Source: Vulcanisaeta distributa DSM 14429
GTDB taxonomy: Archaea > Thermoproteota > Thermoprotei > Thermoproteales > Thermocladiaceae
Assembly (NCBI RefSeq): GCF_000148385.1
Contig: NC_014537.1
Coordinates: 1,080,001-1,112,000, forward strand
Length of the DNA: 32,000 bases
Direction: 5' to 3'
The notes under the pieces were generated by a model that saw only the letters and a list, made by a program, of their open reading frames with translations, ran no database searches and was not told where the DNA came from. A program made the translations under genes and the position numbers. Below are positions 11,369 through 25,634 of the stretch, in pieces (position 1 is the first letter of the stretch; each line of letters begins with the position of its first letter).

Positions 11369-11797
11369 GTGTTAAGTTTATCCTCCGGTCCTTCCCACGT
11401 GTATTACCTCGTCTTGCCAAGTAGGTGCGGTGGTTCCTTGGCCACCGAGCACTTTGCCTTTAGGCCCGTGGAGTTTGGGGATTTCGCCTACGCATTCATT
11501 AGCGCCTTTAATGAGTGCGGCACCTTGCCTATGCTTCATATAGCCGGTGTCGGTAGGTTTATCATTAGTAGGGACCTGGGTGTTAGACTACTGGTTTGGC
11601 TTGGTGGGCAGGGGCATGCTAGGTTTAAGTTGCCTAACCTCTCAACTTTAACCCACCTAATTCCCCTCGCCAGGAGGATTAAGTGTAGTTTAGGCGTCTG
11701 CGACTTCTACGGTGACTTGACTCTCCTCGACCTGGCTAGGTTTAGGCATAGGTTACCCATTGAGTATAGGGTGTTACCAACCGGCCCCACCCTCTGA
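11369..11797 (+). CDS. Hypothetical ORF (GTG start) in a 560-nt gap, possibly not a gene
   Basis: It is the only ORF in the gap between two minus-strand operons. It has no recognisable motifs and an atypical composition (very few K/E/D). It overlaps the cas10 3' end by 24 nt. Confidence 0.2.
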   Translation: MLSLSSGPSHVYYLVLPSRCGGSLATEHFAFRPVEFGDFAYAFISAFNECGTLPMLHIAGVGRFIISRDLGVRLLVWLGGQGHARFKLPNLSTLTHLIPLARRIKCSLGVCDFYGDLTLLDLARFRHRLPIEYRVLPTGPTL

Positions 11798-14044
11798 TCT
11801 AGTCTTGAGCACGTATATGTTTATGCTGGCTATCGCCCTCCCCAATACCCTTAGGTACTGCCCTGCACGGCCCTCATTGCCACACTCGACGCTCTTCAGC
11901 ATATTCGCCAGGTTTTCCGGCGTTAATTCACGCCCCAGCTCATTGATTACCTGCGAGACTGTGTCCCTATTTCTATTAAAGTAGTAGGTGTACTCGATTA
12001 AGGCTCGGAGAAGACTCCTTTTAGCGCTTAGGCAATCAGCATTACTGGGTGCCGTCCCTGAATTCTTCTTTTCCTCTTTCAGCACCGCTACTTTATAGAG
12101 TGCGTCGTAGATTTTGACGAGGTGGCTATTTAATCTGTAAAGCATGGATACACCCCTCTCGCGGGTCTCCTCAAGCTCCGCATAGTCATGCTTCCTCGAT
12201 ACGTAATCGACGATGTTTAATACATCACTCGGTTCCAGCATTACCGGGGCCCCGCCGATGTTGATTACATACATTAGCGACGCGTTCCTATTCTTCCTCT
12301 TAGCCTCCTCTAGCCTATTCTCAGTATCTAGCCACACGAGGTAGATTGGTTGATAGACGTCGTGAATCAGCGCGCCGGCGGCGACGTTTATAGAGAATTC
12401 ATTGGCCCTCATGATTAGCCGCGCCATGTAGTCCAGGGCCATGTGGTCGCCAACCACCACCACATCATCACCCCCACTGTATATGAGGAATACGCTGCCG
12501 CCGTACCTAGACTGGTTACTGTTGAGTAGGTAGGCACCGTACGCGTCGAACATGGTCATTAACAGGTTCGTGAATAGTATATACGTGGCCGCGTCCCTCG
12601 AGGCGCTGGCCTTAATCCTACCCATTGAGTTTGCGTCAGCCTTAACAGTTATGGCCATGCCACCCATTTTAATCTCCTCAAGGTCCATAACCTCACCTGT
12701 CGTAGGCTCGGTGGGCATTAGCGTGTTTAGGAAAATGACCGAGTGCGCCACGTCGCTTTTAGGCTCAATCCCGAATTCATTAAGGTGGTAGTGGACGTAC
12801 TCGCTACTGAAGGCGGGGTTAACCCCATCGGGGCATATGGCGTAGTCCACGCCAAGCAGCCTGGCGACCACGCAGCCGCCCCTACTGTAGCTACTGGTCC
12901 TCAACCTCGCTATGAATCCAAGCCTCCTACTCACGGTACCTATCTTGTGGGCCATGCAGCAGAGGTGGCACATTGTTAACGTGGTGCCGTCGGGCATCTT
13001 CACGCTGGTTAAATTCTCAGACGCCATGCCGCACATGTCGCACAGCCCCACCCCGTTAATGACAACCCTCCTGTACCTACCGTACCTCCGCCTGGTGAGC
13101 TCCCTCTCCAATTCATCAACAGCCCCGCGGAACCCTTCATCAACGCCATGCACCCTCGTGTAGGCTATGGCTAAGCCTAGCCTACCTTCAAACTCGTTAA
13201 CCACATCAGACTCCACGCCACTTACAACCTCACTCAGGACCCCATCCTCAACACCCGGTATCAGCATTATGACCTCGCCACCCGTGTTCACCAGTATGTT
13301 CACTGGGCTGAGTACGTCAGCCTTAAGGGCATTGTTAACGTCGTTAATTATCCTAACGGCCGCGGCCTGTTGAATAAGATTTATGAGGATGGACCTACCC
13401 TTTAACTGCCTCATTGCCTGCTTAGTCCTCTGAATCCTACCAATCACGTCCTGTATACCCACGACATCGATACCCAGGAGCTTATAGTTGCCGCCAGTAG
13501 CCTCAGTGGAGGCGTAGGCCATGGCCGCGTGGGCGGTTGAGTAGGCTGAGTAGCGGCTACCACCCTCACAGTTAGAGTATGGGACATAGAGTAGGGTCAG
13601 CTTCATCGTAGCCAGTAGGGTTTCCATAAACTGCTGGTAGTCCACATGCAGGGCGGCTAGGGCATCAATACCCCTGTCCAGTTCATTAACGACGTCTCGG
13701 TAACTCCCCCTAGCCTTAACACCATCTTTAACCACGTCCAGCATTGAGGCCGGCCCGATGGTTAATGCGCCACCCCCTATGAAGTCTATCACGACCCCCG
13801 CATCGCCTTGACACTCCTGACCCGGCTCTATACTCTTACCCACGGCGTAGCTGATGTAGCGCATCACGGAGCCTTCCCTGATGAGCCGCTCAACGTTACC
13901 TACATTAATGCCCAGGCCGGTTAACGGGTCCTTAAGCTTGTTAAGGTAGTGGATGGCGTTATCGACGTCTGAGCCTCCATGTACCCTACGCCTAACTCTA
14001 CCCATTACGTAGAGGGCCGTGGCTATTACCGCCTCCCTACTCAC
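11774..14044 (-). CDS. cas10: Cas10 (Csm1-like large subunit), cyclase-competent, no recognisable HD motif
   Basis: It has the GIDVVGIQDVIGRIQRTKQAMRQLKGRS block, the Cys cluster CDMCG...MCHLCC, and the GGDD motif (FLIYSGGDDVVVVGD). The first 185 aa or so contain no HD dipeptide. Confidence 0.9.
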   Translation of the reverse strand: MSREAVIATALYVMGRVRRRVHGGSDVDNAIHYLNKLKDPLTGLGINVGNVERLIREGSVMRYISYAVGKSIEPGQECQGDAGVVIDFIGGGALTIGPASMLDVVKDGVKARGSYRDVVNELDRGIDALAALHVDYQQFMETLLATMKLTLLYVPYSNCEGGSRYSAYSTAHAAMAYASTEATGGNYKLLGIDVVGIQDVIGRIQRTKQAMRQLKGRSILINLIQQAAAVRIINDVNNALKADVLSPVNILVNTGGEVIMLIPGVEDGVLSEVVSGVESDVVNEFEGRLGLAIAYTRVHGVDEGFRGAVDELERELTRRRYGRYRRVVINGVGLCDMCGMASENLTSVKMPDGTTLTMCHLCCMAHKIGTVSRRLGFIARLRTSSYSRGGCVVARLLGVDYAICPDGVNPAFSSEYVHYHLNEFGIEPKSDVAHSVIFLNTLMPTEPTTGEVMDLEEIKMGGMAITVKADANSMGRIKASASRDAATYILFTNLLMTMFDAYGAYLLNSNQSRYGGSVFLIYSGGDDVVVVGDHMALDYMARLIMRANEFSINVAAGALIHDVYQPIYLVWLDTENRLEEAKRKNRNASLMYVINIGGAPVMLEPSDVLNIVDYVSRKHDYAELEETRERGVSMLYRLNSHLVKIYDALYKVAVLKEEKKNSGTAPSNADCLSAKRSLLRALIEYTYYFNRNRDTVSQVINELGRELTPENLANMLKSVECGNEGRAGQYLRVLGRAIASINIYVLKTRSEGGAGW

Positions 14045-15074
14045 CCTGCCTCACCTCGATGCAAACCCACCCGATCGGTTCATTACCGGCCAGCCTAACC
14101 GTGGCGTCTCCCCATGGCCTATTGAGCCTGCTACTTACATAGTCCGTGATTCTGGAGACTAGGTCTGGGCTATACTTCTCAAGTAGGTTAATCACGGTCT
14201 TCCACCTCCTGCTCGCGCCAAACCCAACCCTCACTGGTACACCACCCCCACATTCAGGTACCTTAAGGCCCCTCCTCCCCTCGAAGGATGAGACCTCGCG
14301 GCTAAACTCCTTAATAGCATTGACTATATCGTCGTAGTTCAGTAACCTAGCCTTAACATCCTCGGTAACGGGGGGATGCCTTATAGCCACCTCGTACTCA
14401 AGCCTAACGCCGGGCCTTAGGCCAATCGCCATAACCCTATACTTATCCTCCCTATCATGGATGCAGTAGACTCCGTAGTCATCCGGCCTAGGTTTAGTTA
14501 ACTGCCTAACCGCCAGGTCCTTGAATAGGCGGTATGGCGCCTTGAGCCTCTCCTCACCGTGAATCCTCTCCATAACCACCGTCAATACGTCATCCTCAGC
14601 CTCAGGGGAGACCATGTTTAACCTAGGCCTCTCAGCCAGCTTCTCTGAAACGGCCCTGGTGAAGCTTTCCCTAAGCTGGGCATCTCTAGCCAATAGCCAA
14701 TACAGGTAGGCGGTCCTGATCAGGCCCTTAACCTCACTTGGCGGTATCCCCTCAGGGCTATGGTCAAGAACCTCAACACCCCCACAGTTGGTTACTATTG
14801 CGTAGCTCCTCACGGAGTACCTCTCAGGCGCCTTCGACATGGTGTTCATTAGGGCGTTTAACAACTGCCCATAGTCCATCGACTTAACGTTAACCAGCTG
14901 CTCGATGGGTAGTTTAGTTAAGTCAATTACGTAAAGCCTACCGCCGCTGGCCACGGCGTCTAAACCTATGCTTAACCTACCTCCACTCAGCACGAAGGTA
15001 GGCGTCTTAACATTGATAACGAGCCTCATACCACAACCACAGTGGGTCAAGCCTCTTAACGCAGTTGGGTCCAT
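14037..15074 (-). CDS. csm5: Csm5-like RAMP (Cas7-group)
   Basis: Motifs present are VKTPTFVLSGG, IPPSEVKGLIRTAYLYWLL (compare IPGSSIKGALRT) and VRVGFGASRRWKT. The probable start is ATG 15029 (MRLVINV). Confidence 0.65.
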   Translation of the reverse strand: MDPTALRGLTHCGCGMRLVINVKTPTFVLSGGRLSIGLDAVASGGRLYVIDLTKLPIEQLVNVKSMDYGQLLNALMNTMSKAPERYSVRSYAIVTNCGGVEVLDHSPEGIPPSEVKGLIRTAYLYWLLARDAQLRESFTRAVSEKLAERPRLNMVSPEAEDDVLTVVMERIHGEERLKAPYRLFKDLAVRQLTKPRPDDYGVYCIHDREDKYRVMAIGLRPGVRLEYEVAIRHPPVTEDVKARLLNYDDIVNAIKEFSREVSSFEGRRGLKVPECGGGVPVRVGFGASRRWKTVINLLEKYSPDLVSRITDYVSSRLNRPWGDATVRLAGNEPIGWVCIEVRQGE

Positions 15075-15930
15075 TCAACGTTTCAAAATCCAGATACTCG
15101 GCACCAACCACTGAACCGTCGGTGATTACGGAGACTGGGCCCATGACGTAGAATGGGCTGCTGCACACCCAACCCCTAACCATAGTGTTCACGCAGCCGT
15201 AAACCTCCCGGCTACGCGGTAGAGCAGTGCCGAGCAGCAGCGCGTGGCTGCCGGAGTCCCTTAGACTGTCGATAGCATCGACTTTAACCACGGTGAAGTG
15301 CCCAAGCCCAATACTCCTCTCCCCACCGACACCAACCTTACCCAGTAGCTCAAGGGCCCGCCTGGCCTCATCCAGGGATGCCCCATCCCTAGTCGTGAAG
15401 TAGAGTACGTAATTGACGTGGGGTTGGAAGGCGGCCACCCTGTAGGTATCGGCATTGCTCAACACTCTACCAACAACATTCCTCTGAATACTTACACTAC
15501 TCCCATAGCTGCTCCTGTACGTGAATTCACGCCCCCCGCACCTAACCTTAAGGTCGTCATCAAGGAGGGGCTCCACGCTGGGTGCATTTAGGCAATCGAG
15601 TGGTAGATACTTCAGCTTCTTAACCCGCTTCAGGACGGCGTGGGCCCTACCGGGGTCGTCCGCGTACTTACTGGCTATTGACGAGAGTAGCTGAATCTTC
15701 AAATCCATGGGCATGGGCACGGTTAACGCAGCCTCTCCATCCACTTCAAAGGCCATTGGGTACATTGACGATGCCCTATCGATGCCGTGGCTAATGCCTA
15801 GGTGTCTTAGATTCTCCAGGGCCGAGTATACGGTATCCGATGGGACGTAGTCGAGGGTGTCCATCAGGCCAGTCCTACCAACCCTGAACGGCTCCTCAAA
15901 CCTAACCACCGCATAGTTGATCCTCATCAC
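15007..15930 (-). CDS. csm4: Csm4-like RAMP (Cas5-group)
   Basis: It has FEEPFRVGRTG...YVPSDTVYSALENL (the SDTLFSAL-type motif) and the C-terminal G-rich loop VGVGGERSIGLGHF. Confidence 0.7.
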   Translation of the reverse strand: MMRINYAVVRFEEPFRVGRTGLMDTLDYVPSDTVYSALENLRHLGISHGIDRASSMYPMAFEVDGEAALTVPMPMDLKIQLLSSIASKYADDPGRAHAVLKRVKKLKYLPLDCLNAPSVEPLLDDDLKVRCGGREFTYRSSYGSSVSIQRNVVGRVLSNADTYRVAAFQPHVNYVLYFTTRDGASLDEARRALELLGKVGVGGERSIGLGHFTVVKVDAIDSLRDSGSHALLLGTALPRSREVYGCVNTMVRGWVCSSPFYVMGPVSVITDGSVVGAEYLDFETLNGPNCVKRLDPLWLWYEARYQC

Positions 15931-16931
15931 GTCGCACCGCAGATGCTCCTCTTAATGGCGTCAAACACCTCTATCCTACCTATGAAATCCCTGAGCTTAG
16001 TCAATTCATCAAACGTGTCTATTTTACTCGGTGCAGGCTCGTTCATTGCCAGGTTGTGGAAATATAGTTCAATATCCTTAAACTTGATGCTTCCATAACC
16101 CCTGCTGCCTGACCCACCTATGTAAGTCTCCTCAACCAGCATCAGGGCCTCGACCAGTGACTGTAGGTAGAAGCGGGCTGGGTAATCCTTGATAAGGTCT
16201 TTCAACTTACTATGCTCATCACACTCTCTACGCCTACACACGTCGAGGTCAAATACCAGGAATGATATAGACCCCTCAAACTCAACATCAGGCTTAACCC
16301 TAAGTATAGTCCTCGGGTCGGCGGCGCTGGTAACCCTATCGATCCTATTCTCGCTCTTCTCCTCGAGGAAGTCCTCGAAGGTTATATTCCCGCAGCCGCC
16401 CTTCTCCCTGCATAGGTCACTGATGTAATCCTCCGATGGGTACATGTCCCTGAATATAGCCCTGGTCGGTGCCCAGCACTTCTCAACAAGCCATGTGTAT
16501 GGATTCTCACCCTCCTCACTGGGCTGGTAATACATCGGTTGAACGGACATGCTACCGAACACGTTATCAACGGGGCAGTATGGGTCATCGTGAATTATCT
16601 TATTACCCTCACCAACCCTCATGTGGTAATATATCTTACCATCCGTGGTACTTAAGCTAAGGCCCAGGGCAAGCTCAAGCAGTGACCTCGCCCTACCCTT
16701 AAGGGAACTGCCCGGTATGTAGGGGACCTTGATCTGGCAATCTTTATAATTCTTGCAATCTTTATAATAATACTGTTTATATATTGACACTGGCTCAACA
16801 TCAGCCGCGCCCATCACCTCCCTAGCCTTAAGGCTCCTAATCAGGAAGCCTGTCTTGTTAATCAGTTTAAACTTTAACTCGAAGATGCCGACCAGCCTCA
16901 ACTGCGGTGAGAGGTACTGCCTCACAGCCAC
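15927..16931 (-). CDS. csm3: Csm3 (Cas7 backbone RAMP)
   Basis: Motifs present are AADVEPV, VPYIPGSSLKGRARSLLE, NRIDRVTSAADPRTILRV and IGGSGSRGYGSIKF. Confidence 0.85.
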   Translation of the reverse strand: MAVRQYLSPQLRLVGIFELKFKLINKTGFLIRSLKAREVMGAADVEPVSIYKQYYYKDCKNYKDCQIKVPYIPGSSLKGRARSLLELALGLSLSTTDGKIYYHMRVGEGNKIIHDDPYCPVDNVFGSMSVQPMYYQPSEEGENPYTWLVEKCWAPTRAIFRDMYPSEDYISDLCREKGGCGNITFEDFLEEKSENRIDRVTSAADPRTILRVKPDVEFEGSISFLVFDLDVCRRRECDEHSKLKDLIKDYPARFYLQSLVEALMLVEETYIGGSGSRGYGSIKFKDIELYFHNLAMNEPAPSKIDTFDELTKLRDFIGRIEVFDAIKRSICGAT

Positions 16932-17344
16932 TCCTCCTCACCCCTCTTGATACCGTAAATGACGTACGCTAGGAATGCGTCGAGCGAATCCCTGAGGGTT
17001 TCGGCAAGCTTCCTGGCCTGCTGCGGATCCTTAGCATTCCTTATATCGTCAAGCGCCTGCTTAATCCCATTAGCCAAGTCTTCATCAATGACGCTTCGGT
17101 TCTTCTGATACTCAATAACCACGTTCAGTCTAAATAAGGCCCTTGAGTAATTCCTCAAATCGGCATCACTTGAGGATATTATCTTATCCAGGACCGGTAT
17201 AATCATGTTGTAGATCTTCCTAAAGGAGGCTGACGTAGTCCTATAAACCCTATAGCCAGCCAAGGTCCTTAACCCTGCATCATAGTCACCGTTCCTAAAG
17301 CTCTGAACCACATTAGAGTAGAAGCGAGAAGACCCGTACGGCAT
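16922..17344 (-). CDS. csm2: Csm2-like small subunit (Cas11)
   Basis: It is a 140-aa helical protein. TTSASFRKIYNMI resembles the Csm2 TSQLRKFY motif. It is the first gene of the csm operon. Confidence 0.6.
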   Translation of the reverse strand: MPYGSSRFYSNVVQSFRNGDYDAGLRTLAGYRVYRTTSASFRKIYNMIIPVLDKIISSSDADLRNYSRALFRLNVVIEYQKNRSVIDEDLANGIKQALDDIRNAKDPQQARKLAETLRDSLDAFLAYVIYGIKRGEEEWL

Positions 17345-17395
17345 TACTAAAAACTAGTAGAGAGAGGTTTAAAAATATTGCTCAGATCTATGGCT
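17345..17395. promoter_or_regulatory. Compact divergent promoter region with a single A/T element between csm2 and the ATPase gene
   Basis: GGTTTAAAAATATTG has its core at 17367-17376. That core is about 27 nt from csm2 ATG (17344) and about 25 nt from ATG 17396 on the other strand. Confidence 0.45.
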
Positions 17396-18466
17396 ATGCC
17401 TAATTTAGCGATTAAGGGAAGTTTAACATATGGCGGAAGAGAGGTCAACGTTGATATAGGTATTGAGCTTAAACCATTAACCATATTAATTGGGCCAAAC
17501 CTAAGCGGTAAGTCTCTAACGCTCATGTGCTTAGCAAAGCTGGCAAGGACGATCATAGCGAGAGGTTACGTGCATGATCGTATTGAGGAGCTGCCGCAAT
17601 CGCTGGAGTGCGTGGGTGATAGTTTGAATTATGACTACGCAATATATGTCGATGCGTATAGAGTAATGCTGCAACCATTTATGAAAATAAGGCCTATGTT
17701 AGATAAAATAAGGAGGGTTACTGAGGGATTGGTCGATGAGAACTTACGTGGTATAAGAAGTTCCATATTACTTGACGTTGATACTCTTAATAAATCGCTC
17801 TCAGAGGATGAGGTGGCTAAGGATTTACGGATTAAAACAAGCATGATACTTCTAAACGACGCTATGAAGGTTTTTGAGAAGGCCCGTAATGGTTTTCAAT
17901 TAATGATTGAGGAAGCCTCAAAGACCTTCGGTGAGCGTGGTGAGGACTTCAGGAGGGCGCTCAGTCACTTCATGCCGTTGTTCATCGAGCATGTTAATCT
18001 CATGGGTAATAATAGTGCATGGCGTTGGTATGACTTCGAATTAGGTAACACTAGCTTTAATGTTGAGGAGCTTTCCAGTGTCTATGCGCCGTCCCTCGTG
18101 GTCTTCTACGCATTACATACTTATGCGCTACCACAAAACTCCGTGCTCCTCGTTGAGGAGCCTGAGGTGCATGCGCACCCAAGCCTCGCGTTATTCCTGG
18201 GCTACTTCCTAAATAGGCTTGTGCGAGATAGCGAGCAGAGGCTTAGGAGTGGTGAGAAGCCGTGGGTATTCCATGTAGTCGTGTCCACGCATAGCATGGA
18301 CTTCCTAAGGGGAGCGCTAATGGCTGGTGAGGATACGGTGGGGGTTTACGTATTCGATAGGGATGTTACCGAGGGCAAGATAACTGTGAAGCCCTGGTCA
18401 GGAGGCGCCGTTATACCTGGCTTTACCGAGTCAAGGTTATTAACTATGTTTGGTGGTAAAGGATGA
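17378..18466 (+). CDS. ABC-type (AAA_15/AAA_21-like) ATPase, no fused effector domain
   Basis: It has Walker A GPNLSGKS, Walker B/D-loop VLLVEEPEVHAHP and the H-loop VVVSTHSMDFL. The likely start is ATG 17390 or 17396. Confidence 0.8.
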   Translation: MLRSMAMPNLAIKGSLTYGGREVNVDIGIELKPLTILIGPNLSGKSLTLMCLAKLARTIIARGYVHDRIEELPQSLECVGDSLNYDYAIYVDAYRVMLQPFMKIRPMLDKIRRVTEGLVDENLRGIRSSILLDVDTLNKSLSEDEVAKDLRIKTSMILLNDAMKVFEKARNGFQLMIEEASKTFGERGEDFRRALSHFMPLFIEHVNLMGNNSAWRWYDFELGNTSFNVEELSSVYAPSLVVFYALHTYALPQNSVLLVEEPEVHAHPSLALFLGYFLNRLVRDSEQRLRSGEKPWVFHVVVSTHSMDFLRGALMAGEDTVGVYVFDRDVTEGKITVKPWSGGAVIPGFTESRLLTMFGGKG

Positions 18467-18924
18467 ATAAAGGATTAATAGGGATAAACATAGTTGACTT
18501 GTATTACTGCTTTGAACCTAAGTTGATGGATTACATATACTCATTGTATTATGATAATGAATACTGCGTCCTATGTGAAAAAGGATTGTGTAGGGATGGA
18601 AAAATAGTATATGGTAAGTATTTAATATCGGATAACGTTTTGTGGTTTGTGGAGGGCTTTTATGTTAAAATGGCGTGCCCTGAGTGTAATCCTGATGGTA
18701 ACTGCATCATGAATTGCATTGTTGTGAATGAACATGAGTCTCATCATCTTACGTGCTGTGTTGGGCATGGTATTGCTGGCGTGTTAACCGTTAGGGCTGG
18801 TTGCAGTAAGGGGTGTGGTGAGGGTGTTAGCGCTAAAGAGGTTGGTGGTGAGCTCGTGTGTGATGATTTCTTCAGGTGTAGGCCTATTGATGGTTTAGGG
18901 TGTTGGCTTTATTGCTATAGGTAA
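18463..18924 (+). CDS. Cys-rich small protein (16 Cys in 153 aa), unknown family
   Basis: Its start overlaps the ATPase stop in an ATGA junction (18463-18466). CxxC pairs CVLC...CPEC, plus CIMNC, TCC, CSKGC, CDDFFRC and CWLYC. I recognise no family. Confidence 0.5.
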   Translation: MNKGLIGINIVDLYYCFEPKLMDYIYSLYYDNEYCVLCEKGLCRDGKIVYGKYLISDNVLWFVEGFYVKMACPECNPDGNCIMNCIVVNEHESHHLTCCVGHGIAGVLTVRAGCSKGCGEGVSAKEVGGELVCDDFFRCRPIDGLGCWLYCYR

Positions 18925-18988: not shown

Positions 18989-20053
18989 TTGCTAATTGAG
19001 TTGATGAGGGAGGTCTTTGAGTTGGTAAGGCTTATGGAGGAGGTTGGTGGTAAGGTTGGTGATTACGTTAGTCCTGACGTTGTTGATCTTGGTGAGGGTT
19101 ATGACGTTGTTAGGGTTTCCTGCGATAATGTTGATTTTGTGGTCATTGATAAGGGCGGTGTTGAGCTTGGAGATAGGTTGATTGGTGTTGATTCCCACAC
19201 GTCCGTGCTTAGGTTCGCGGCATTTGACGTGCATGTAGTCACAGGCGCGCTTGTGGGTCGGGACGTCTACCTAGTGCCTGGGGTTCAGGGCGTTAGGTGG
19301 TTGGGGCTTAAGCTTAGGTTTAGGCTTGATAATGCGGATGCGCTGGATAGGTACTCTGGGATCATCTACGTTAAGTCCAGGTACCTGGGTAGGTACTTCG
19401 ACGGCTCCTACAACGATGAGGCAATTAGGGATGAGGTGAGACTCCACGTTGAGTTAAGACTCATCAACATTGCCAGGGAGTTGAGTGGCTTCATCCTGAT
19501 TGACGGGCCCGTATTCCCAACACCAAGGATACTGGGTATGGAGGGTAATGAGTACTCAAGCCTTTACTGGGGCTTGGTTAAGGATAGGGTTGAGGCCCTG
19601 AGGGGTTTGAGGGCCGTGGGTGTCGTTAAGAGGCTGGGCCAGAGTCACTACCTGGCCAGGTGCCTTGGGGAGGTCTATGCCGATGACTACACGCTGGCCG
19701 TTAACAAACTAACGCCATTGCTGGGCAATGGCGGAGTCGCGGCCATTGGGCCTGTGAGGATTGAGGCTGGTGATTACGGTAAGTACTGTTGGTACGTCGC
19801 CTCGAGGCTTGGTCGTAGGATTGACGTTGTTAGGGTTGAGGGGTTGAGTGAGGATGTTGTTGAGGTTGGTAGGGACTACGTTGCCCTAACAATGACCGTG
19901 GGTGGGACTGCAATGTCGATACACATAGCCGATAGGGTGGCTAGGAGGTTGAATGCCAGCGCGGTGAACCTAATATCATCCATATCCCCACTGGGCATAA
20001 CGTATGAGGGCCTTGAAACGATTAGGGAGGCACTGAGTGAGTTGGGTGGTTGA
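18989..20053 (+). CDS. nurA: NurA-domain nuclease
   Basis: Motifs present are IGVDSHTS, RDEVRLHVELRL, FILIDGPVFP, VGVVKRLGQSHYL and SIHIADRVARRL. The A/T box GGTATAAATAATACC lies at 18962-18976. The start is TTG 18989 or ATG 19004. Confidence 0.7.
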   Translation: MLIELMREVFELVRLMEEVGGKVGDYVSPDVVDLGEGYDVVRVSCDNVDFVVIDKGGVELGDRLIGVDSHTSVLRFAAFDVHVVTGALVGRDVYLVPGVQGVRWLGLKLRFRLDNADALDRYSGIIYVKSRYLGRYFDGSYNDEAIRDEVRLHVELRLINIARELSGFILIDGPVFPTPRILGMEGNEYSSLYWGLVKDRVEALRGLRAVGVVKRLGQSHYLARCLGEVYADDYTLAVNKLTPLLGNGGVAAIGPVRIEAGDYGKYCWYVASRLGRRIDVVRVEGLSEDVVEVGRDYVALTMTVGGTAMSIHIADRVARRLNASAVNLISSISPLGITYEGLETIREALSELGG

Positions 20054-21791
20054 TGTGGTGGGTGCCAAACCCATTGATTGTAGGAGTGTCCTGGGCTACA
20101 TAACGAGGCAGATGCCCAGCTCGGTAACGGCCGAGTCCGCCGTCACCTACATGATCAGTGAATGCCAGGTGGAGTTCCCCGTGGGTAAGTACCTGGTTAT
20201 TGAGGGTGATGGTGTTAATTACCTGGCTAGGATATCCGAGTCGAGGATTGAGGATATTTACTCCGTAGCCAAGACCCCCGTGCTCTCCCTGGAGCAGGAG
20301 TTGAGTATGGACATTAGGTACGTGCCCAGGCTAATAGCCCTCGAACTCGTGGCTGAGTGCAGGGGTGAAACCTGCGGCGCACCGGTGACGCCACCACCAA
20401 TACACGCAGTCGTCAGGGAGCCAAACCCCCAGGAGGTCTCGAAGATGTTGTCACTGCCGGTTGAGGGCATCGTGCTTGGGTCACTGGCACTACCATCCGG
20501 CGTTGTGATACCCGGTAATGAGGTCCTAATAACGAGGGATGCCCTCAAACACCACATGCTCGTTGTCGGGACCACGGGTAGCGGCAAGACGACACTACTG
20601 AAGAACCTGGCCCTCGAACTAATCACCAAGTACAAGGGCACCACGGTGATAGCCGTGGACGCGGTTGGGCATTACCACCACCTAGCCCTTAACAACGTGA
20701 GGACCAAGGTCCTAATACCCGTGACCCACGATTACGTGAGGAGGGCCATTAAGAGGGCTGGGAATGGGCGCGACGCAGTTAAGGGACTCGCTAAGGCCCT
20801 GGCGAGGGACTACATAAATGGGGTCTTCAGGTCAATGGGTATTAAGGTTGGGAGGGTTAGGGTTAAGGCGGTGATGGCTAGGTCGGGCAATAAGTATAGG
20901 CTTGTTAGTGTGGTGTTGGGCGTTGGCGGTGGTGTTGAGTTGATACCCTGGTCCCTAAGGACCAGGGACCTACTAATGAGTATTAATGAGTTGACGGGAT
21001 TACTCACGGAGCAGGCTAGGATGTTCTACGGTAAGGTGATTAGGGAGGTTAGAAAGAGGATTTCGGGGTCTGGGTTGACCTTCGAGAGGATTTACGAATA
21101 CCTAACAAGCCCCAGTGAGAATAGGCTGGGTGGCAGGCAGTTGCTTAATTATGAGGTGATTGCCGGTAACCTCGGGATTCACGAGAGCACTATGGAGAAT
21201 ATCGTCAGGGCATTACTGGCCATAATAGAGACTAGGCTCTTCGACATTGAGGTCCGCGCCGGCGTTGATTACGTGGTTAATGAAGAGCCGGATTATGGGA
21301 GCGCATTCAAGCCCGGCTACGTGGTCCTAGACCTAAGGACATCCTCAGCCCTCAGGCAGAGGATCATGGTTTATAGGGTCCTTGACAGGTTGTTTAGGTT
21401 CATGGGTGGGGAGCACCTACGTAATAGGGATAGGATGGCCGTGGTGCTTGTTGATGAGGCTCACCTGTTCTTCCCGCAGACTAGGGCTGATGAGGAGAGG
21501 AGGCTCCTGGAGAGGCACATAACGAGGATAACGAGGCTGGGTAGGAGTAGGGGGATTGCCGTTGTCTTCGCAACCCACATGCCCGACGACCTAAACGACG
21601 CAATAATACAGTTAACGAACACGAAGGTTATCCTCAGGAGTGATGAGAAAGTACTGGAGAGGCTTGGCGTACCAACCAGGGAGAGGAGGTTCCTATCCAT
21701 AGCGCCAACGGGGCTTGCGTACGTCAAGGGCTTTGCCTATAGGTACCCAATATACATAGCCTTCAAGCCCCAGGCGTACCACGTCGGGTAA
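20037..21791 (+). CDS. herA: HerA-type (FtsK/HerA superfamily) hexameric ATPase
   Basis: It has a barrel-like N-terminal domain, Walker A MLVVGTTGSGKTTLLKN, Walker B AVVLVDEAHLFFP, and RLGRSRGIAVVFATHMP. GTG start candidates are at 20037, 20055 and 20058, around the nurA stop (20051-20053). Confidence 0.85.
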   Translation: MSWVVDVVGAKPIDCRSVLGYITRQMPSSVTAESAVTYMISECQVEFPVGKYLVIEGDGVNYLARISESRIEDIYSVAKTPVLSLEQELSMDIRYVPRLIALELVAECRGETCGAPVTPPPIHAVVREPNPQEVSKMLSLPVEGIVLGSLALPSGVVIPGNEVLITRDALKHHMLVVGTTGSGKTTLLKNLALELITKYKGTTVIAVDAVGHYHHLALNNVRTKVLIPVTHDYVRRAIKRAGNGRDAVKGLAKALARDYINGVFRSMGIKVGRVRVKAVMARSGNKYRLVSVVLGVGGGVELIPWSLRTRDLLMSINELTGLLTEQARMFYGKVIREVRKRISGSGLTFERIYEYLTSPSENRLGGRQLLNYEVIAGNLGIHESTMENIVRALLAIIETRLFDIEVRAGVDYVVNEEPDYGSAFKPGYVVLDLRTSSALRQRIMVYRVLDRLFRFMGGEHLRNRDRMAVVLVDEAHLFFPQTRADEERRLLERHITRITRLGRSRGIAVVFATHMPDDLNDAIIQLTNTKVILRSDEKVLERLGVPTRERRFLSIAPTGLAYVKGFAYRYPIYIAFKPQAYHVG

Positions 21792-22551
21792 GGTTTAGGA
21801 ACTCCCTAAACCAGGGCGCCAACTCCACGGAGTCGCCCCTCCTAACCAGGAAGCCCGACCTAACGAGGTCACTCAGTAGGTCCCTCGGCAACCCACCCAG
21901 GGCCCCACTCAACACCTTACTCACCAACTCATCATCAACCCTGAGGGGCATCCTAGGCAGCACTATTAGCCTCCCATCCACGGTTACGTATATGGGCTTT
22001 GCACCCAGGAGCCAGGCAACCATGGAAGCCATGACACTCTCCAACTTAGTACCGCCGGCAATACTCACATAGGCGTCGAAGCCCCTGGAGATGTAGTCAA
22101 TGAGGTCCGAGCCAAGTGCCCTAACAAGGTTCCCCAAACCATCACTGAAATTCTCAGTCCCGAAAAACTGAACCCTCGTGTAACCATCAACCTCCACGCC
22201 TAACTCACGGGACTTAGACGTGAGGCACCTAACGAGGGCTACAGTACAGAGTTGCGAGCTCGCCGTATCCGTGGCGTAGAACTTAACCCTAATAACATCA
22301 CCACCAAGCAACCTCCTAAGCAGGACAACCGAGGAACCCTCGGCACAGCACCTAACCAAGTCACCACACGCGAAGTCCCTCAACCTATTGATAAAGCCCT
22401 CATTATAGAGGTACCTAGAGAGCCTCGAGTCAGCCTCACGATCACCACCCAACACCCTCCTAACCAACTCATCACCAACAACGCTGGACACCAACGCATT
22501 CTCAAGCAAGGACAAACCAACAATAACACCAAGGAAAGCAGGCACAACCAA
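21763..22551 (-). CDS. CARF-domain protein, APE2256/SSO1393-like, paralogue of 8978-9859
   Basis: GVIVGLSLLEN, CAEGSSVVLL, FYATDTASS and VSIAGGTKLES align motif-for-motif with the other copy. The C-terminal tail SGFLVRRGDSVELAPWFREFL matches SGVIDIRNGEVEVREWFRRL. The 3' end overlaps herA by 29 nt (convergent). Confidence 0.6.
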   Translation of the reverse strand: MVVPAFLGVIVGLSLLENALVSSVVGDELVRRVLGGDREADSRLSRYLYNEGFINRLRDFACGDLVRCCAEGSSVVLLRRLLGGDVIRVKFYATDTASSQLCTVALVRCLTSKSRELGVEVDGYTRVQFFGTENFSDGLGNLVRALGSDLIDYISRGFDAYVSIAGGTKLESVMASMVAWLLGAKPIYVTVDGRLIVLPRMPLRVDDELVSKVLSGALGGLPRDLLSDLVRSGFLVRRGDSVELAPWFREFLNLTRRGTPGA

Positions 22552-22594: not shown

Positions 22595-22759
22595 GTTATT
22601 GAGTAATTGAACAATATCGTGAAAACAAGCAATACCTATCTCGTTAAAATCATCAGAACAGGGACGGATCGTGAACATTCGTAGGAATTAATGTTCCAAC
22701 GAGAACCGAGAAGGGAGTGTAGGAAAAGCTTAAAAAGGACTAAATAAGCAAACGTACCG
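22595..22759 (+). promoter_or_regulatory. CRISPR leader 3 with A/T-box promoter
   Basis: CTTAAAAAGG at 22729-22738 starts 31 nt before repeat 1. It is homologous to leader 2 over about 165 nt. Confidence 0.75.
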
Positions 22760-23430
22760 GAAGATTTCAATAGAATATTGAAAGGAAAGGATCATGTGGG
22801 TTTTCCCTGTCAATCCCGTGATGTCGGAAGATTTCAATAGAATATTGAAAGTCATTGTGAATTCCCATACCTGTGTAGCTGATGGTAATTCATATGCCGA
22901 AGATTTCAATAGAATATTGAAAGTAGATTTCTACACGGATAAGGGCGTGTTCGACACCACGAGTGAGGAAGATTTCAATAGAATATTGAAAGTAGCCTGC
23001 CAGCCATTTACACCCTCTGCCTCTATTTTCATTTTTACCTGAAGATTTCAATAGAATATTGAAAGAATAATAGCGCGGAAATTGTGGCTGTCCATGCCTT
23101 GCTGGTAAGAAGATTTCAATAGAATATTGAAAGGAATTTCATCTAAGAACAGTGGGGCCTGCATCTGATAAGTAGTAGCTAGGAAGATTTCAATAGAATA
23201 TTGAAAGACGATGCCTCTCGAGGGGGCTCAGGAGAGAATGGGGAGTTGAATGAGGGAAGATTTCAATAGAATATTGAAAGCACGTATGTCGCAACGTCAC
23301 CATCCCTGAAGCCACCCATAGCAGGAAGATTTCAATAGAATATTGAAAGGAGCGATAATGTTCATCTAAATCATCGGTGCGAGTCATCACATAAATTAGT
23401 TGGGGTTTCAATAGAATAAAGTATTGAAGG
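22760..23430 (+). CRISPR. CRISPR array 3: 10 repeats, 9 spacers (42-52 nt), same repeat
   Basis: Perfect repeats start at 22760, 22827, 22899, 22968, 23041, 23109, 23183, 23256 and 23325. The terminal repeat at 23402-23430 is degenerate (GGGGTTTCAATAGAATAAAGTATTGAAGG). Confidence 0.97.
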
Positions 23431-23511: not shown

Positions 23512-24399
23512 TTATGGTTTTTGTCGTATCATTCTTCCGTAGCCCAATGCTGTCTTAGCGCCCAACCCATTATTTAGTGCCTTCATGACTATGTCGCTGA
23601 TCTCCTTCACCATGCATGCCCCCTGACACTTGCTGTCCATGTACACGTACTCACCCACATCCCTCCCACCGCACTTATACCTTAGCCTGGACCTATTTAT
23701 CATTACAACGACCCTAAACCCAACGCCCTTGGATATTGCTAGGAATGGTATTGGTGTTGGGTTGACCTGGGGCTCGCTTATGGCTCCCTCGCCCTCCCTG
23801 TAGTGTGGGTTTATTATGTCGAGGGTTAGTAGCCCGCCGTTAGCTGGGCAGTAGACTGGGTATGAGTCCAGAACCACTATTGGCGAAACCTCCGCTGGAT
23901 TTCCCTCCTCATCTGTTGGGCTTAGGGCCCTTGAGCATGGTGTTCCCTGGGCCGCGGAGTTTATTGCGCCTTTAAGTGAAGATGATGGTATGTAGGGTAG
24001 GTTCCAGTACGGGTCCCAGGCGATCCCAGTCTCAAGGACCTCCATGTACGGGTTCCTAAGGCCTACCACGAGCCTACTAATCGTGATGTATGTCGAGTCT
24101 ATCAATTCCTCATAACCCAAGGACTTAAGGGACTCCTTAACCTCGGTAATATTATCATTAACGCGCCTCAGTAACTCGCCCAGGTTATTGCATGAGTAAG
24201 CCTTGACCAAGTCCTCCATTAACCCCCTAGCCCTTTCATTGATGTATTCCCTAACATTAGTGGTTGAACTCGAGCCACCGCGACCCCGTCCCGTACCAAC
24301 CCTCGTCTGAGCACCGCCGGCGCCAATCGTCTGAATCCATTTAATGAATTCACGCCTAATGTGGCTGATGACGTTAGTCTCACTGGGTCTCACGGCCAT
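23512..24399 (-). CDS. cmr6: Cmr6 (type III-B RAMP)
   Basis: Motifs present are LPYIPSSSLKGAINSAA and the C-terminal GLGAKTALGYGRM. Confidence 0.8.
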   Translation of the reverse strand: MAVRPSETNVISHIRREFIKWIQTIGAGGAQTRVGTGRGRGGSSSTTNVREYINERARGLMEDLVKAYSCNNLGELLRRVNDNITEVKESLKSLGYEELIDSTYITISRLVVGLRNPYMEVLETGIAWDPYWNLPYIPSSSLKGAINSAAQGTPCSRALSPTDEEGNPAEVSPIVVLDSYPVYCPANGGLLTLDIINPHYREGEGAISEPQVNPTPIPFLAISKGVGFRVVVMINRSRLRYKCGGRDVGEYVYMDSKCQGACMVKEISDIVMKALNNGLGAKTALGYGRMIRQKP

Positions 24400-25625
24400 G
24401 CAGGTTTCACCCTGATTCCCTGTTTGCCCGCGTAGTCGAGGAACTCATTCAAGGCAATACATATTGCATCGACTACCAGGGACTCACTGATCGTTATTCT
24501 CTGACTACCCGCGTCCCTCCACGTAAGCTCTCTAGGCCAGTCAGCGGATAGGAAGACCGATAGGTAACTCTGATTACTATGCACGGCGAGGATCATTGGC
24601 GATGCCCTCCTACTCACGTCACTGGTTATTTCATAGCCGGTACCTCTCTGCTCCCTCGGTAAGCCGAGTATCCACGCAGCCAGCCTATTCCTTAATTTAT
24701 CATTAACGGTCGGGTTGCCCATCAAGACCCTAGCCCTCTCGGGCCTAAGGAAGAAGTTATGGAGTGCCCCCAAAACCCTACTACCACCGCTCAACTCCAG
24801 AACCTGGAATGCATATAACTTACCCAACTTACACCCAATATCTCTATTCACGCATTTCGTGTACTCGGCCTTGGAAATAACGGGCATTGGTGGTAACCCG
24901 CAGTCCCTACCCCCCATAGCCTGCGCACGCCTCGGTAAATACTCACTTTTGCTGATCGTATTCTTAACGTACTTAACCACCTCATTAATCAACTCATTAA
25001 TTGACCTCCTCGAATCGAACAATGAGGAGTACCTACCGTTGACTGACCTTACGTCCAAGCAACCGAGGCCCCTTCTACCGCCCTTACCGAGGCACGACAG
25101 CCTTAAGGCAAGGCTTAACGAGCCCAGGGCAGCCTTAACAGCATTATCGTCTAAGTTGCATGGGATATGCTCATTAATTGTTATGTGTGCCCTGAGCCTA
25201 TCAACATACTCAACCTGCCTCCTACCAAGTGTCAGTAACCTAACCCTCTGTAGGTTAATACCACCGATTAAGCCCCCACTGGCTACTCGGGGCTGCGCCG
25301 CCTCGGTAATATCGACGCTGACTCGGAAGCATGACGCCCTAGAGCCCTCCTCACCCGCATAACCAAGCCCCAGGTCAAGCCCCACTATTTTCGAAATAAG
25401 CTCAGCCTCACGATCACTTGGCCTCCTTAAAATATCCCTATCCGGGACGCCGTGAAGTAGTCCCTGTTCGAATAAGGCACCAGCCACCAGGGCCCTCGCC
25501 CACCAGCGCCAGAGACCCTTAACCTCACTGGGCCTTATTGGGTAATCCCTATCGACCTCATTGGGGTTGGCAGACCCTGCCAGTAATGGTGTGGCTAATT
25601 CCACGTCTAACTCGACATAGGCCAT
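24390..25625 (-). CDS. cmr1: Cmr1 (type III-B RAMP)
   Basis: ELATPLLAGSAN...IRPSEVKGLWRWWARAL is the Cmr1 signature (compare lrG.lRfWwRa). Confidence 0.75.
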   Translation of the reverse strand: MAYVELDVELATPLLAGSANPNEVDRDYPIRPSEVKGLWRWWARALVAGALFEQGLLHGVPDRDILRRPSDREAELISKIVGLDLGLGYAGEEGSRASCFRVSVDITEAAQPRVASGGLIGGINLQRVRLLTLGRRQVEYVDRLRAHITINEHIPCNLDDNAVKAALGSLSLALRLSCLGKGGRRGLGCLDVRSVNGRYSSLFDSRRSINELINEVVKYVKNTISKSEYLPRRAQAMGGRDCGLPPMPVISKAEYTKCVNRDIGCKLGKLYAFQVLELSGGSRVLGALHNFFLRPERARVLMGNPTVNDKLRNRLAAWILGLPREQRGTGYEITSDVSRRASPMILAVHSNQSYLSVFLSADWPRELTWRDAGSQRITISESLVVDAICIALNEFLDYAGKQGIRVKPAWP

Positions 25626-25634
25626 TCAATCACC

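What the first reader, a model, noticed from the sequence alone, without database searches (positions are those of the whole stretch)
17378..18924. ABC-type ATPase translationally coupled to a 16-cysteine small protein
Seen: a 362-aa ATPase (GPNLSGKS, VLLVEEPEVHAHP, STHS) with no fused nuclease domain. Its stop overlaps the ATG of a 153-aa ORF in an ATGA junction (18463-18466). That ORF has 16 Cys and 4 His, including CVLC...CPEC (zinc-ribbon-like spacing), TCC, CSKGC and CWLYC. Established: ATPases of this class usually come with a partner effector in two-gene defence systems, for example Septu PtuA-PtuB(HNH), PARIS AriA-AriB and Gabija. Inference: the Cys-rich protein may be a metal-binding effector or sensor of a two-gene defence or CRISPR-accessory module. 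I recognise no family for it, so it may be undescribed.
Basis: partly seen in the sequence, partly recalled or inferred. Interest (0 to 1): 0.7.

Follow-up and report, generated by a model that had tools for sequence, protein, structure and literature searches.

The report
Known CRISPR accessory ATPase and cysteine-rich partner
The ATPase gene and the overlapping cysteine-rich small gene are real, but they are the "Cas_RecF / RFas" pair, catalogued since 2014 as helpers of archaeal type III CRISPR systems and still of untested function.

Summary
An ABC-type ATPase ORF (17378-18466; the true start is probably ATG 17396) overlaps by ATGA a 153-aa ORF with 16 Cys and 4 His.

The window is Vulcanisaeta distributa DSM 14429. 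Both genes are annotated there as hypothetical proteins (ADN50542.1 and ADN50543.1).

The small protein matches the PADLOC model "cas_RFas, cluster 17 associated" (E 1e-42). It is the orthologue of VMUT_1493, the representative of cluster 83 in Shah et al. 2019. That cluster had the highest type III association score in the survey and always sits next to the "Cas_RecF" ATPase. The pair is therefore described, but I found no experimental study of it.

In 28 related loci the layout is fixed: cas10-csm5-csm4-csm3-csm2, then divergently the ATPase, then RFas. The gap between the last two is -4 to +9 nt. A third small protein (RFas84, window 11369-11797) is conserved as well. NurA-HerA often follow.

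Cysteine richness holds across the family (10-16 Cys; invariant Cys core plus His-Glu).

The ATPase models confidently as an SMC-head / OLD-ABC fold. The small protein could not be modelled.

Best reading: an ATP-gated ATPase plus metal-binding partner complex, built like Septu or PARIS, that serves the Csm complex. Identity is firm. Mechanism is inferred.

The parts
17368..17377 (.). A/T-rich TATA-like element (TTTAAAAATA) in the 51-nt spacer between the divergent csm2 and ATPase genes. Probably the promoter of a leaderless ATPase-RFas mRNA, possibly bidirectional.
   Evidence: Read from the sequence. Comparable TATA-like elements lie 20-45 nt upstream of the ATPase ATG in L014, L001 and L002. 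Promoter function is inferred.
17378..18466 (+). Cas_RecF-type ABC ATPase of the OLD-ABC / SMC-head class (ADN50542.1). The likely true start is ATG 17396 (356 aa).
   Evidence: Pfam AAA_15 and AAA_21. 100% identical to the V. distributa protein. AF2 pLDDT 86.7. Foldseek hits to retron Eco8 and Eco7 ATPases, Septu PtuA, SMC heads, Rad50, OLD and RecN. Walker A, Walker B and H-loop are conserved in 18 homologues.
18463..18466 (+). ATGA overlap of the ATPase stop codon and the RFas83 start codon.
   Evidence: The junction is -4 to +9 nt in all related loci.
18463..18924 (+). RFas83: Cys-rich 153-aa 'RecF-associated' protein (ADN50543.1, UniProt E1QQX3). It has an N-terminal module of about 65 aa and a C-terminal Cys/His-Glu module of about 80 aa.
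   Evidence: PADLOC PDLC01064 cas_RFas, E 1.2e-42. Orthologue of VMUT_1493. 22 distinct homologues carry 10-16 Cys each.
11369..11797 (+). RFas84: second small accessory protein (142 aa) of the same module, convergent with cas10 and overlapping its 3' end.
   Evidence: PADLOC PDLC01065 cas_RFas, E 1.9e-46. 39% identical to the ORF just downstream of VMUT_1493. Present in nearly all related loci with enough flank.
11774..17344 (-). Type III-A effector cassette csm2-csm3-csm4-csm5-cas10, divergent from the ATPase gene.
   Evidence: PADLOC and Pfam. The same order and orientation occur in all related loci.
18989..21791 (+). CRISPR-type NurA (18989-20053) and HerA (20037-21791).
   Evidence: PADLOC 'Type III coevolved' NurA at E 4e-129 and HerA at E 1e-250. 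They also follow the module in L022, L025 and L026.
21763..22551 (-). CARF7 (Cas_APE2256 / ring-nuclease-like) protein, convergent with herA.
22758..23353 (.). CRISPR array: 9 repeats of GAAGATTTCAATAGAATATTGAAAG.

Best explanation
The two genes are the V. distributa copy of the Cas_RecF / RFas (cluster 17 / cluster 83) accessory pair of crenarchaeal type III-A CRISPR-Cas systems.

**Proposed working**
- Both proteins are made from one short, probably leaderless, bicistronic mRNA. Its promoter is back-to-back with that of the csm operon.
- Start-stop overlap couples their translation, so they assemble into one complex.
- The ATPase is an SMC-head / OLD-ABC type ABC ATPase. Its Walker A, Walker B and H-loop are intact. 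An Arg sits in the conserved DAYRV motif, which I take to be the Q-loop position.
- It also has a helical insertion of about 100 residues and a small C-terminal beta domain with a conserved W...IPGFTEP motif.
- By analogy with Septu PtuA-PtuB, PARIS AriA-AriB and Menshen NsnB-NsnC, ATP-driven head dimers would hold and gate the small partner.
- The partner folds its C-terminal half around 10-12 conserved cysteines. These most likely form two or three Zn sites, and the half carries an invariant His-Glu dyad.
- I propose that the partner is the nucleic-acid-binding or nucleic-acid-cleaving end of the complex. It would extend Csm immunity at the nucleic-acid level, alongside the neighbouring NurA-HerA.

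**Status of each step**
- Shown: gene identity, family membership, strict synteny, the ATPase fold class, and the conserved Cys/His-Glu pattern.
- Inferred: complex formation, metal binding, ATP gating, and any nuclease or DNA-directed role.
- My confidence is about 0.95 for the identity and about 0.3 for the mechanism.
For: **Identity**
- PADLOC cas_RFas at E 1.2e-42.
- Exact match to V. distributa proteins.
- Orthology to VMUT_1492 and VMUT_1493.
- Literature description of the pair.

**Linkage**
- Every RFas83 gene in the 28 related loci that has upstream DNA shows the same layout: cas10..csm2, then divergently the ATPase, then RFas83, with a -4 to +9 nt junction.
- There are no hits in viral contigs. 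Exhaustive profile and word searches recover only hot-spring archaeal sequences.

**ATPase class**
- Pfam AAA_15 and AAA_21.
- Best PADLOC hits are NsnB, AriA, GajA, PtuA and Old.
- Confident AF2 model. Foldseek hits to retron Eco8 and Eco7 ATPases, Septu PtuA, SMC, Rad50, OLD and RecN heads.
- Catalytic motifs are conserved.

**Partner**
- 10-16 Cys in all 22 homologues.
- Invariant C35, C81, H91, E92, C99, C114, E120 and G121. C85 and the C-terminal Cys (C139/C147/C151 region) are conserved in at least 80% of sequences.
- One Cys position is lost and compensated nearby, which keeps 12 Cys in the C-terminal half.

**Paradigm**
- An OLD-ABC ATPase dimer binds one effector asymmetrically in Septu, PARIS, Menshen and Gabija (PMC12065111).

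**NurA-HerA**
- They are adjacent here and in L022, L025 and L026.
Against: - No fold or family could be assigned to the small protein. AF2 gave pLDDT 36. There are no Pfam, NCBIfam, PHROG or PDB sequence hits.
- No recognised nuclease motif is present. HNH, Toprim DxD and the PIN acidic tetrad are all absent.
- Conserved acidic residues of the N-terminal module shift between the two clades.
- Neither protein has a CARF or SAVED domain, so there is no obvious route for a cOA signal.
- Foldseek TM-scores for the ATPase are low (0.35-0.43). Only the broad class is established.
- Cytoplasmic disulfides are common in Thermoproteales (my own knowledge), so the cysteines need not bind metal.
- NurA-HerA are not adjacent in V. 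moutnovskia, Thermocladium or L014.
- No expression or biochemical data exist.
Confidence: 0.5

Rival explanations
1. Non-catalytic adaptor or chaperone model. RFas83 is a purely structural protein, stabilised by Zn or disulfides, that tethers the ATPase to the Csm complex. The ATPase would use ATP to assemble, remodel or recycle Csm-crRNA-target complexes rather than to control an effector.
For: - Strict one-to-one linkage with a single Csm variant and a shared divergent promoter region.
- No nuclease motif in RFas83.
- Shah et al. suggest that ATPases might supply energy for more efficient interference.
Against: - The His-Glu dyad and E120-G121 are invariant, which looks more like a functional site than pure scaffolding.
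- Known OLD-ABC ATPases in defence gate effectors rather than remodel ribonucleoproteins.
Confidence: 0.25
2. Iron-sulfur or redox model. The conserved cysteines ligate one or more Fe-S clusters, as in Cas4 or AddB 'iron-staple' nucleases. Alternatively they form redox-sensitive disulfides, making RFas83 a redox-dependent switch or an Fe-S nuclease.
For: - 10-12 conserved Cys in about 80 residues.
- One conserved N-terminal Cys (C35) lies far from the C-terminal cluster.
- Several CRISPR-linked nucleases carry Fe-S clusters (my own knowledge).
Against: - No canonical CxxCxxCxxxCP or CxxxCxxC motif.
- The spacings (CxC, Cx2C, Cx3C, CC) are more typical of Zn knuckles.
- No similarity to the Cas4 or PD-(D/E)xK families.
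Confidence: 0.1
3. Independent two-gene defence system of the Septu or PARIS kind. It merely sits in a CRISPR/defence island and works without the Csm complex.
For: - The ATPase hits AriA, GajA, PtuA and Old models in PADLOC.
- Defence genes cluster in islands.
- The pair has lower GC3 than its neighbours, 40-49% against about 60%.
Against: - The pair was never found away from a csm2..cas10 cassette in any locus with flanks.
- It had the highest Cas-association score in Shah et al..
- The PADLOC hits cover only the generic ATPase motifs.
- The partners that define those systems (HNH, Toprim/DUF4435, UvrD helicase) are absent.
Confidence: 0.1
4. The 153-aa ORF is spurious and its cysteine richness is a compositional accident.
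For: - Low GC (39.8%) relative to its neighbours.
- No database family outside PADLOC.
Against: - 22 distinct homologues at 25-65% identity keep the Cys/His-Glu pattern.
- The position downstream of the ATPase is fixed.
- dN/dS is about 0.3-0.5 on close pairs, although few sites are informative.
- It is annotated in GenBank and RefSeq.
Confidence: 0.01

Closest known systems
Cas_RecF + RFas accessory pair of crenarchaeal type III CRISPR-Cas (Vestergaard et al. 2014, PMC3973734; clusters 17 and 83 of Shah et al. 2019, PMC6546367)
   Same: - It is this family. The HMM matches and the small protein is orthologous to the cluster representative VMUT_1493.
- The ATPase of about 330-360 aa is followed directly by a small protein of about 150-160 aa with no database matches.
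- The pair lies next to type III-A and is accompanied by the cluster 84 protein and a Csx1.
   Different: - Nothing essential differs.
- In V. distributa the cluster 84 gene and Csx1 lie on the far side of the csm cassette, and NurA-HerA directly follow RFas83.
- The 'RecF' label is loose. No RecF model matched at E 0.1 or better, and no RecF structure appears among the top 50 Foldseek hits.
- The weak 83/84 similarity mentioned by Shah et al. was not reproduced (hhalign probability 0.1%).
Septu (PtuA ATPase + PtuB HNH nuclease), including retron Eco7/Ec78 PtuAB
   Same: - An AAA_15-class ABC ATPase with a helical insertion, encoded just upstream of a smaller partner.
- PtuA structures are among the best Foldseek hits.
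   Different: - The partner has no HNH motif or Pfam HNH hit.
- The PADLOC PtuA hit is weak and partial (E 1.7e-6).
- This pair is tied to a Csm cassette, not free-standing or retron-linked.
PARIS (AriA ATPase + AriB Toprim nuclease)
   Same: - A two-gene arrangement of ATPase and effector.
- AriA is the second-best PADLOC hit (E 1e-10).
   Different: - That hit covers only about 60 residues around Walker B.
- The partner is not a DUF4435/Toprim protein.
Menshen NsnB (OLD-ABC ATPase) + NsnC effector
   Same: - NsnB is the best, near full-length PADLOC hit (E 3e-11, residues 29-316).
- NsnB has its Q motif replaced by Arg. The ATPase here has a conserved Arg in DAYRV that I take to be the equivalent position.
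- The effector is bound through the ATPase C-terminal domain (PMC12065111).
   Different: - There is no NsnA ParB-like sensor and no DUF3696 domain.
- RFas83 shows no BECR or other nuclease domain.
- The PIN-like hint for its N-terminal module is not significant (Fcf1, E 1.8).
Archaeal Mre11-Rad50-HerA-NurA DNA end-resection operon
   Same: - An SMC-type ATPase, a small metal-dependent partner, NurA and HerA are encoded side by side.
- Rad50 heads are among the Foldseek hits.
   Different: - There is no long coiled coil or Zn hook.
- The partner is not an Mre11 phosphoesterase.
- NurA and HerA here are the CRISPR-specific paralogues.
- NurA-HerA adjacency is seen in the window and only 3 of the other loci with adequate flank.

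Membership tests
Cas_RecF / RFas (clusters 17 + 83) type III accessory pair | The small protein matches the cas_RFas profile built from the published cluster. | tested here: met
   PADLOC PDLC01064 'cas_RFas, cluster 17 associated', E 1.2e-42, covering residues 6-153.
Cas_RecF / RFas (clusters 17 + 83) type III accessory pair | Homology to the cluster 83 representative VMUT_1493. | tested here: met
   VMUT_1493 (P0027) was identified by exact look-up. It aligns at 36% identity with all core Cys conserved.
Cas_RecF / RFas (clusters 17 + 83) type III accessory pair | The small gene lies immediately adjacent to an SMC/RecF-like ABC ATPase gene of about 330 aa. | tested here: met
   ATGA overlap here. 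The gap is -4 to +9 nt in all related loci. The ATPase is 47% identical to VMUT_1492.
Cas_RecF / RFas (clusters 17 + 83) type III accessory pair | Located next to a type III-A interference cassette in Crenarchaeota. | tested here: met
   csm2-csm3-csm4-csm5-cas10 is divergent from the ATPase. The host is V. distributa, Thermoproteales.
Cas_RecF / RFas (clusters 17 + 83) type III accessory pair | The ATPase matches a Cas_RecF (cluster 17) profile. | not testable with these tools
   No Cas_RecF model appeared among the 25 PADLOC hits shown, and the model may be absent from the library. Membership is therefore inferred from orthology to VMUT_1492 and the paper's statement of invariable adjacency.
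RecF proper (bacterial RecFOR) | Match to a RecF family model. | tested here: not met
   No RecF model in NCBIfam at E 0.1 or better. No RecF among the PDB sequence hits or the top 50 Foldseek hits; the RecN head ranks 43rd.
Septu PtuAB | The partner is an HNH nuclease (PtuB). | tested here: not met
   No HNH or PtuB hit for the 153-aa protein in Pfam or PADLOC.
PARIS AriAB | The partner is a DUF4435/Toprim nuclease (AriB), and the ATPase matches AriA over its full length. | tested here: not met
   The AriA hit covers only residues 252-309. There is no AriB hit.
OLD / Gabija GajA | A Toprim nuclease domain fused to the ATPase, and a GajB UvrD-like helicase partner. | tested here: not met
   The ATPase ends after a beta domain of about 50 residues. 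GajA and Old hits cover only the Walker B region. No helicase partner is present.
Rad50-Mre11 | A long coiled coil with a CxxC zinc hook, and an Mre11 phosphoesterase partner. | tested here: not met
   The helical insertion is only about 100 residues and has no CxxC; the whole ATPase has 2 Cys. The partner has no metallophosphatase hit.
Zinc-ribbon / treble-clef / HNH / Fe-S fold for the small protein | A recognisable fold in a confident 3D model. | tested here: inconclusive
   The AF2 model had mean pLDDT 36.3 with a 5-sequence alignment, so it is unusable for fold search. Metal content cannot be tested with these tools.

The most novel reading that the evidence does not exclude
RFas83 has a new metal-cluster fold (three Zn or Fe-S sites on 10-12 Cys plus a His-Glu catalytic dyad) and acts as a nuclease or DNA-end binder gated by the SMC-head ATPase. 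Together with the CRISPR-specific NurA-HerA it would form a CRISPR-directed DNA-resection machine. That machine would be a compact analogue of Mre11-Rad50-HerA-NurA. It would supply the DNA-clearing arm to a Csm complex whose Cas10 has lost the HD nuclease motif in Vulcanisaeta and Thermocladium.
Probability: 0.15. Interest if true: 0.7.

Novelty: already known. Interest (0 to 1): 0.35.

Why it matters
**Why the pair is worth attention**
- Cluster 83 was the accessory family most strongly associated with type III CRISPR in the largest published survey.
- Neither it nor its ATPase partner has been studied experimentally in any paper I could find.
- Working out the pair would show how a non-CARF, non-cOA accessory module plugs into type III immunity.
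- It would also test whether the 'ATPase gates effector' logic of Septu, PARIS and Menshen was recruited by CRISPR systems in hyperthermophilic archaea.

**Value as a scan finding**
- It is a rediscovery, not a new system.
- What this analysis adds:
  - the family-wide Cys/His-Glu signature;
  - a second, more divergent clade;
  - the fixed csm-ATPase-RFas layout across 28 loci;
  - the correction of the start codon.

Tried and rejected
**Structure and fold searches**
- AF2 of the 153-aa protein, with the only alignment allowed (5 sequences), gave pLDDT 36. I ran no fold search on it.
- The BFVD fold search returned only generic ABC ATPases.

**Family assignments for the small protein**
- PIN-like lead: one homologue hit Pfam Fcf1 at E 1.8 over a Cys-rich stretch. 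The apparent D in 'CCLDRS' is Gly in most members, so I rejected it as noise.
- HNH, Toprim, PD-(D/E)xK and deaminase motifs: none fits the invariant residues across both clades.
- Acidic residues of the N-terminal module shift (N9/D12 against D/G; E39-K40 against D-G).
- PHROGs, NCBIfam and PDB sequence searches found nothing for the small proteins.

**Relationships between families**
- RFas83-RFas84 homology, which Shah et al. called 'weak similarity': hhalign probability 0.1%. Not supported.
- More distant ATPase homologues lack the helical insertion (P0015, P0021) or sit next to PaRep2b (P0018). They have no RFas83 and no csm genes nearby, and their neighbours are unrelated helical proteins. 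They gave no functional clue.

**Database scans**
- The genome-contig scan returned only Vulcanisaeta sp. JCM 14467.
- The viral-contig scan found none.
- The plasmid blastn search found none.

**Selection**
- dN/dS on divergent pairs was invalid because of indels. Only close pairs are usable, and they carry few substitutions.
Full report
**1. Observation**

- ORF listing and direct reading confirm a 362-aa ORF on the + strand (17378-18466). It carries GPNLSGKS, VLLVEEPEVHAHP and STHS.
- Its TGA overlaps the ATG of a 153-aa ORF (18463-18924) in the sequence ATGA at 18463-18466.
- The small ORF has 16 Cys and 4 His (10.5% Cys). The other 24 long ORFs of the window average 1.5% (binomial P about 2e-9).
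- The ATPase start needs correcting.
  - The public protein is 356 aa and begins at ATG 17396.
  - Homologues align from that Met.
  - A TATA-like TTTAAAAATA occupies 17368-17377 and abuts the TTG.
  - A leaderless mRNA starting near 17390-17396 is therefore more likely. This last step is an inference.

**2. Source and identity**

- The ATPase is 100% identical to a Vulcanisaeta distributa protein (ADN50542.1 / WP_013336267.1).
- The small ORF is ADN50543.1 / WP_013336268.1 / UniProt E1QQX3. Both are annotated as hypothetical proteins.
- Pfam places the ATPase in AAA_15 and AAA_21. It finds nothing for the small protein.
- PADLOC matches the small protein to PDLC01064 'cas_RFas, cluster 17 associated' at E 1.2e-42.
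- That model derives from the catalogue of Shah et al. 2019 (PMC6546367).
  - There, cluster 83 (representative VMUT_1493) is the accessory family with the highest Cas-association score.
[quoted passage not shown] - Vestergaard et al. 2014 (PMC3973734, Table 5) had already named the pair Cas_RecF and RFas, 'always associated'.
- I confirmed by exact look-up that the ORF downstream of the V. moutnovskia ATPase VMUT_1492 (47% identical to ours) is VMUT_1493. It aligns with our protein with all core cysteines in register.
- The pair is therefore already described as a type III accessory module. I found no paper that characterises it experimentally.

**3. Context**

The window is a CRISPR-Cas super-locus.

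- Three arrays share one repeat (4987-5500, 6729-7450, 22758-23353).
- It also holds cas6 and a Csa1/Cas4-like gene.
- A type III-A cassette, csm2-csm3-csm4-csm5-cas10 (17344 down to 11774, - strand), is divergent from the ATPase.
- CRISPR-specific NurA and HerA lie directly downstream of RFas83.
- There are two CARF7 proteins, a Csx1 CARF-HEPN and a CARF-PIN.
- A type III-B cmr cassette is also present.
- A second 'cas_RFas' protein (PDLC01065, E 1.9e-46) is encoded at 11369-11797(+), convergent with cas10.
  - It is 39% identical to the ORF that follows VMUT_1493 on the opposite strand.
  - It corresponds to the cluster 84 type.

**4. Distribution and synteny**

- The family is narrow. An exhaustive profile search of 1.84 billion representatives found 5 clusters.
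- After I recognised a divergent homologue next to a 34%-identical ATPase (L013), a broader profile found a second clade (P0030-P0036).
- A metagenome scan added 12 loci.
- I built HMMs for the ATPase, RFas83 and RFas84 and searched all 28 loci plus the window.
  - Every RFas83 gene with upstream DNA is directly preceded by the ATPase on the same strand. The junction is -4 to +9 nt.
  - Every locus with enough flank has csm2-csm3-csm4-csm5-cas10 divergent from the ATPase.
- RFas84 occupies one of two positions.
  - It can be convergent right after RFas83, where it is also directly downstream of csx1.
  - It can instead be convergent at the cas10 end, as in the window, L009, L014 and L015.
- NurA-HerA-CARF7 follow in the window, L022, L025 and L026. 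They do not follow in V. moutnovskia, Thermocladium or L014.
- No relative was found in viral contigs or plasmids.
- ATPase homologues without the helical insertion, or next to PaRep2b, lack RFas83 and csm genes.

**5. The small protein**

- Twenty-two distinct homologues have 10-16 Cys each.
- Strictly invariant across both clades are C35, Y53, C81, H91, E92, C99, L108, C114, E120 and G121. C85 and the C-terminal Cys (C139/C147/C151 region) are conserved in at least 80% of sequences.
- Clade 1 adds C72, C75 and C98.
- In the C-terminal half, V. distributa and V. moutnovskia both have 12 Cys although one position has moved. The comparison is A112/C118 against Cys/Phe. That pattern suggests paired ligands or paired disulfide partners.
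C38 varies, and C43 lies in an insertion unique to this sequence.
- The N-terminal 65 residues or so (LIGINIVDLYY ... CILxEKG) look like a beta-alpha-beta unit. This is an inference from the residue pattern only.
- Close pairs give dN/dS of 0.3-0.5 on few substitutions.
- AF2 failed (pLDDT 36), and no Pfam, NCBIfam, PHROG or PDB hit exists. The fold remains unknown.
- hhalign does not support homology between RFas83 and RFas84.

**6. The ATPase**

- AF2 gave a confident model (pLDDT 86.7, pTM 0.87). It has three parts:
  - an ABC head;
  - a helical insertion at about residues 92-189;
  - a small C-terminal beta domain carrying the conserved W334 and IPGFTEP.
- Foldseek against the PDB returns the following at E 1e-6 to 1e-4, with TM-scores of only 0.35-0.43:
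  - retron Eco8 and Eco7/Ec78 ATPases;
  - Septu PtuA;
  - cohesin, condensin and Smc heads;
  - Rad50;
  - the OLD nuclease;
  - the RecN head.
- This establishes the broad SMC-head / OLD-ABC class, not a specific family.
- Conserved in 18 homologues are Walker A, the EEPE Walker B, the H-loop, and a conserved Arg in the DAYRV motif. I take that Arg to be at the Q-loop position, as in Menshen NsnB.
- The name 'RecF' is loose. No RecF model or structure matched.

**7. Mechanism**

- Structural work summarised in PMC12065111 shows a common design: OLD-ABC ATPase dimers bind one effector asymmetrically and gate it with ATP. This holds for Septu, PARIS and Gabija, and is predicted for Menshen.
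- The most economical reading is that Cas_RecF-RFas83 uses the same design. The cysteine-rich protein, most likely Zn-bound, would be the gated nucleic-acid-binding or nucleic-acid-cleaving subunit.
- The complex would be dedicated to one Csm variant and would often work beside NurA-HerA.
- Neither protein has a CARF or SAVED domain. The input is therefore more likely physical contact with Csm or a nucleic-acid structure than cOA.
- All of this is inference. I give it about 0.3.
- The rivals are:
  - a non-catalytic adaptor or remodeller (0.25);
  - an Fe-S or redox protein (0.1);
  - an independent defence pair (0.1);
  - a spurious ORF (0.01).

**8. Verdict**

It is a catalogued but uncharacterised CRISPR accessory pair.
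- Interest as a scan finding is modest (0.35).
- The biological question stays open and could be settled with the experiments listed under the next steps.

Noticed in passing
window 11369-11797 (+): A 142-aa ORF matches a second cas_RFas model (PDLC01065, cluster 84 type) and overlaps the cas10 3' end by 24 nt in convergent orientation. In most related loci the orthologue lies directly downstream of csx1 on the same strand with a 0-20 nt gap, so it may partner Csx1 as much as the ATPase. Invariant C50, H57, C106 and C111 suggest a single CHCC metal site.
   Followed up: partly
window 13990-14044 (-), Cas10 N-terminus; compare L014:4680-4726: In Vulcanisaeta and Thermocladium Cas10 the HD dyad position reads V-M (LYVMGRV). 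The second-clade Cas10 in L014 keeps LLHDVGK and has a Pfam HD hit. Cas10 of this window therefore probably lacks ssDNase activity. The GGDD cyclase motif is present.
   Followed up: partly
window 17396-18924: The ATPase-RFas83 pair has lower GC and GC3 than its neighbours: 45.8/49.3% and 39.8/39.6%, against about 52/60% for the csm, nurA and herA genes. This could reflect separate acquisition or codon bias. It is unexplained.
   Followed up: no
window 30-136 (-): Rfam finds a tRNA spanning 107 nt (model positions 1-71), so it probably contains an intron.
   Followed up: no
window 4987-5500, 6729-7450, 22758-23353: Three CRISPR arrays share the 25-nt repeat GAAGATTTCAATAGAATATTGAAAG. cas6 (5601-6473) lies between the first two.
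   Followed up: partly
window 23512-31378: A second type III cassette of the III-B cmr type: RAMPs, Cmr5, and a 1069-aa Cmr2/Cas10 at 27186-30395.
   Followed up: no
window 7672-8994 (-): The Csx1 CARF-HEPN protein has 17 Cys (3.9%), the second-highest Cys content in the window.
   Followed up: no
L009 6837-8505 (Vulcanisaeta sp. JCM 14467): The closest orthologues of the ATPase, RFas83 and several csm genes are split into fragments. This could be frameshift errors in a draft assembly or genuine decay of the module.
   Followed up: no
L008:7053-7508 vs L024:6986-7438: Two near-identical RFas83 genes differ by 7 nonsynonymous and 0 synonymous changes. The numbers are too small to claim positive selection, but the pattern is unusual.
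   Followed up: no
L005-L007, L010-L011: ATPase homologues at 32-34% identity occur away from any csm genes. Some lack the helical insertion (263-285 aa), and one sits next to a PaRep2b protein. The ATPase lineage is therefore wider than the CRISPR-linked pair.
   Followed up: partly
window 1887-1995: A tandem repeat of period 33 with 3.3 copies and 69% matches, inside ORF 1810-2214.
   Followed up: no
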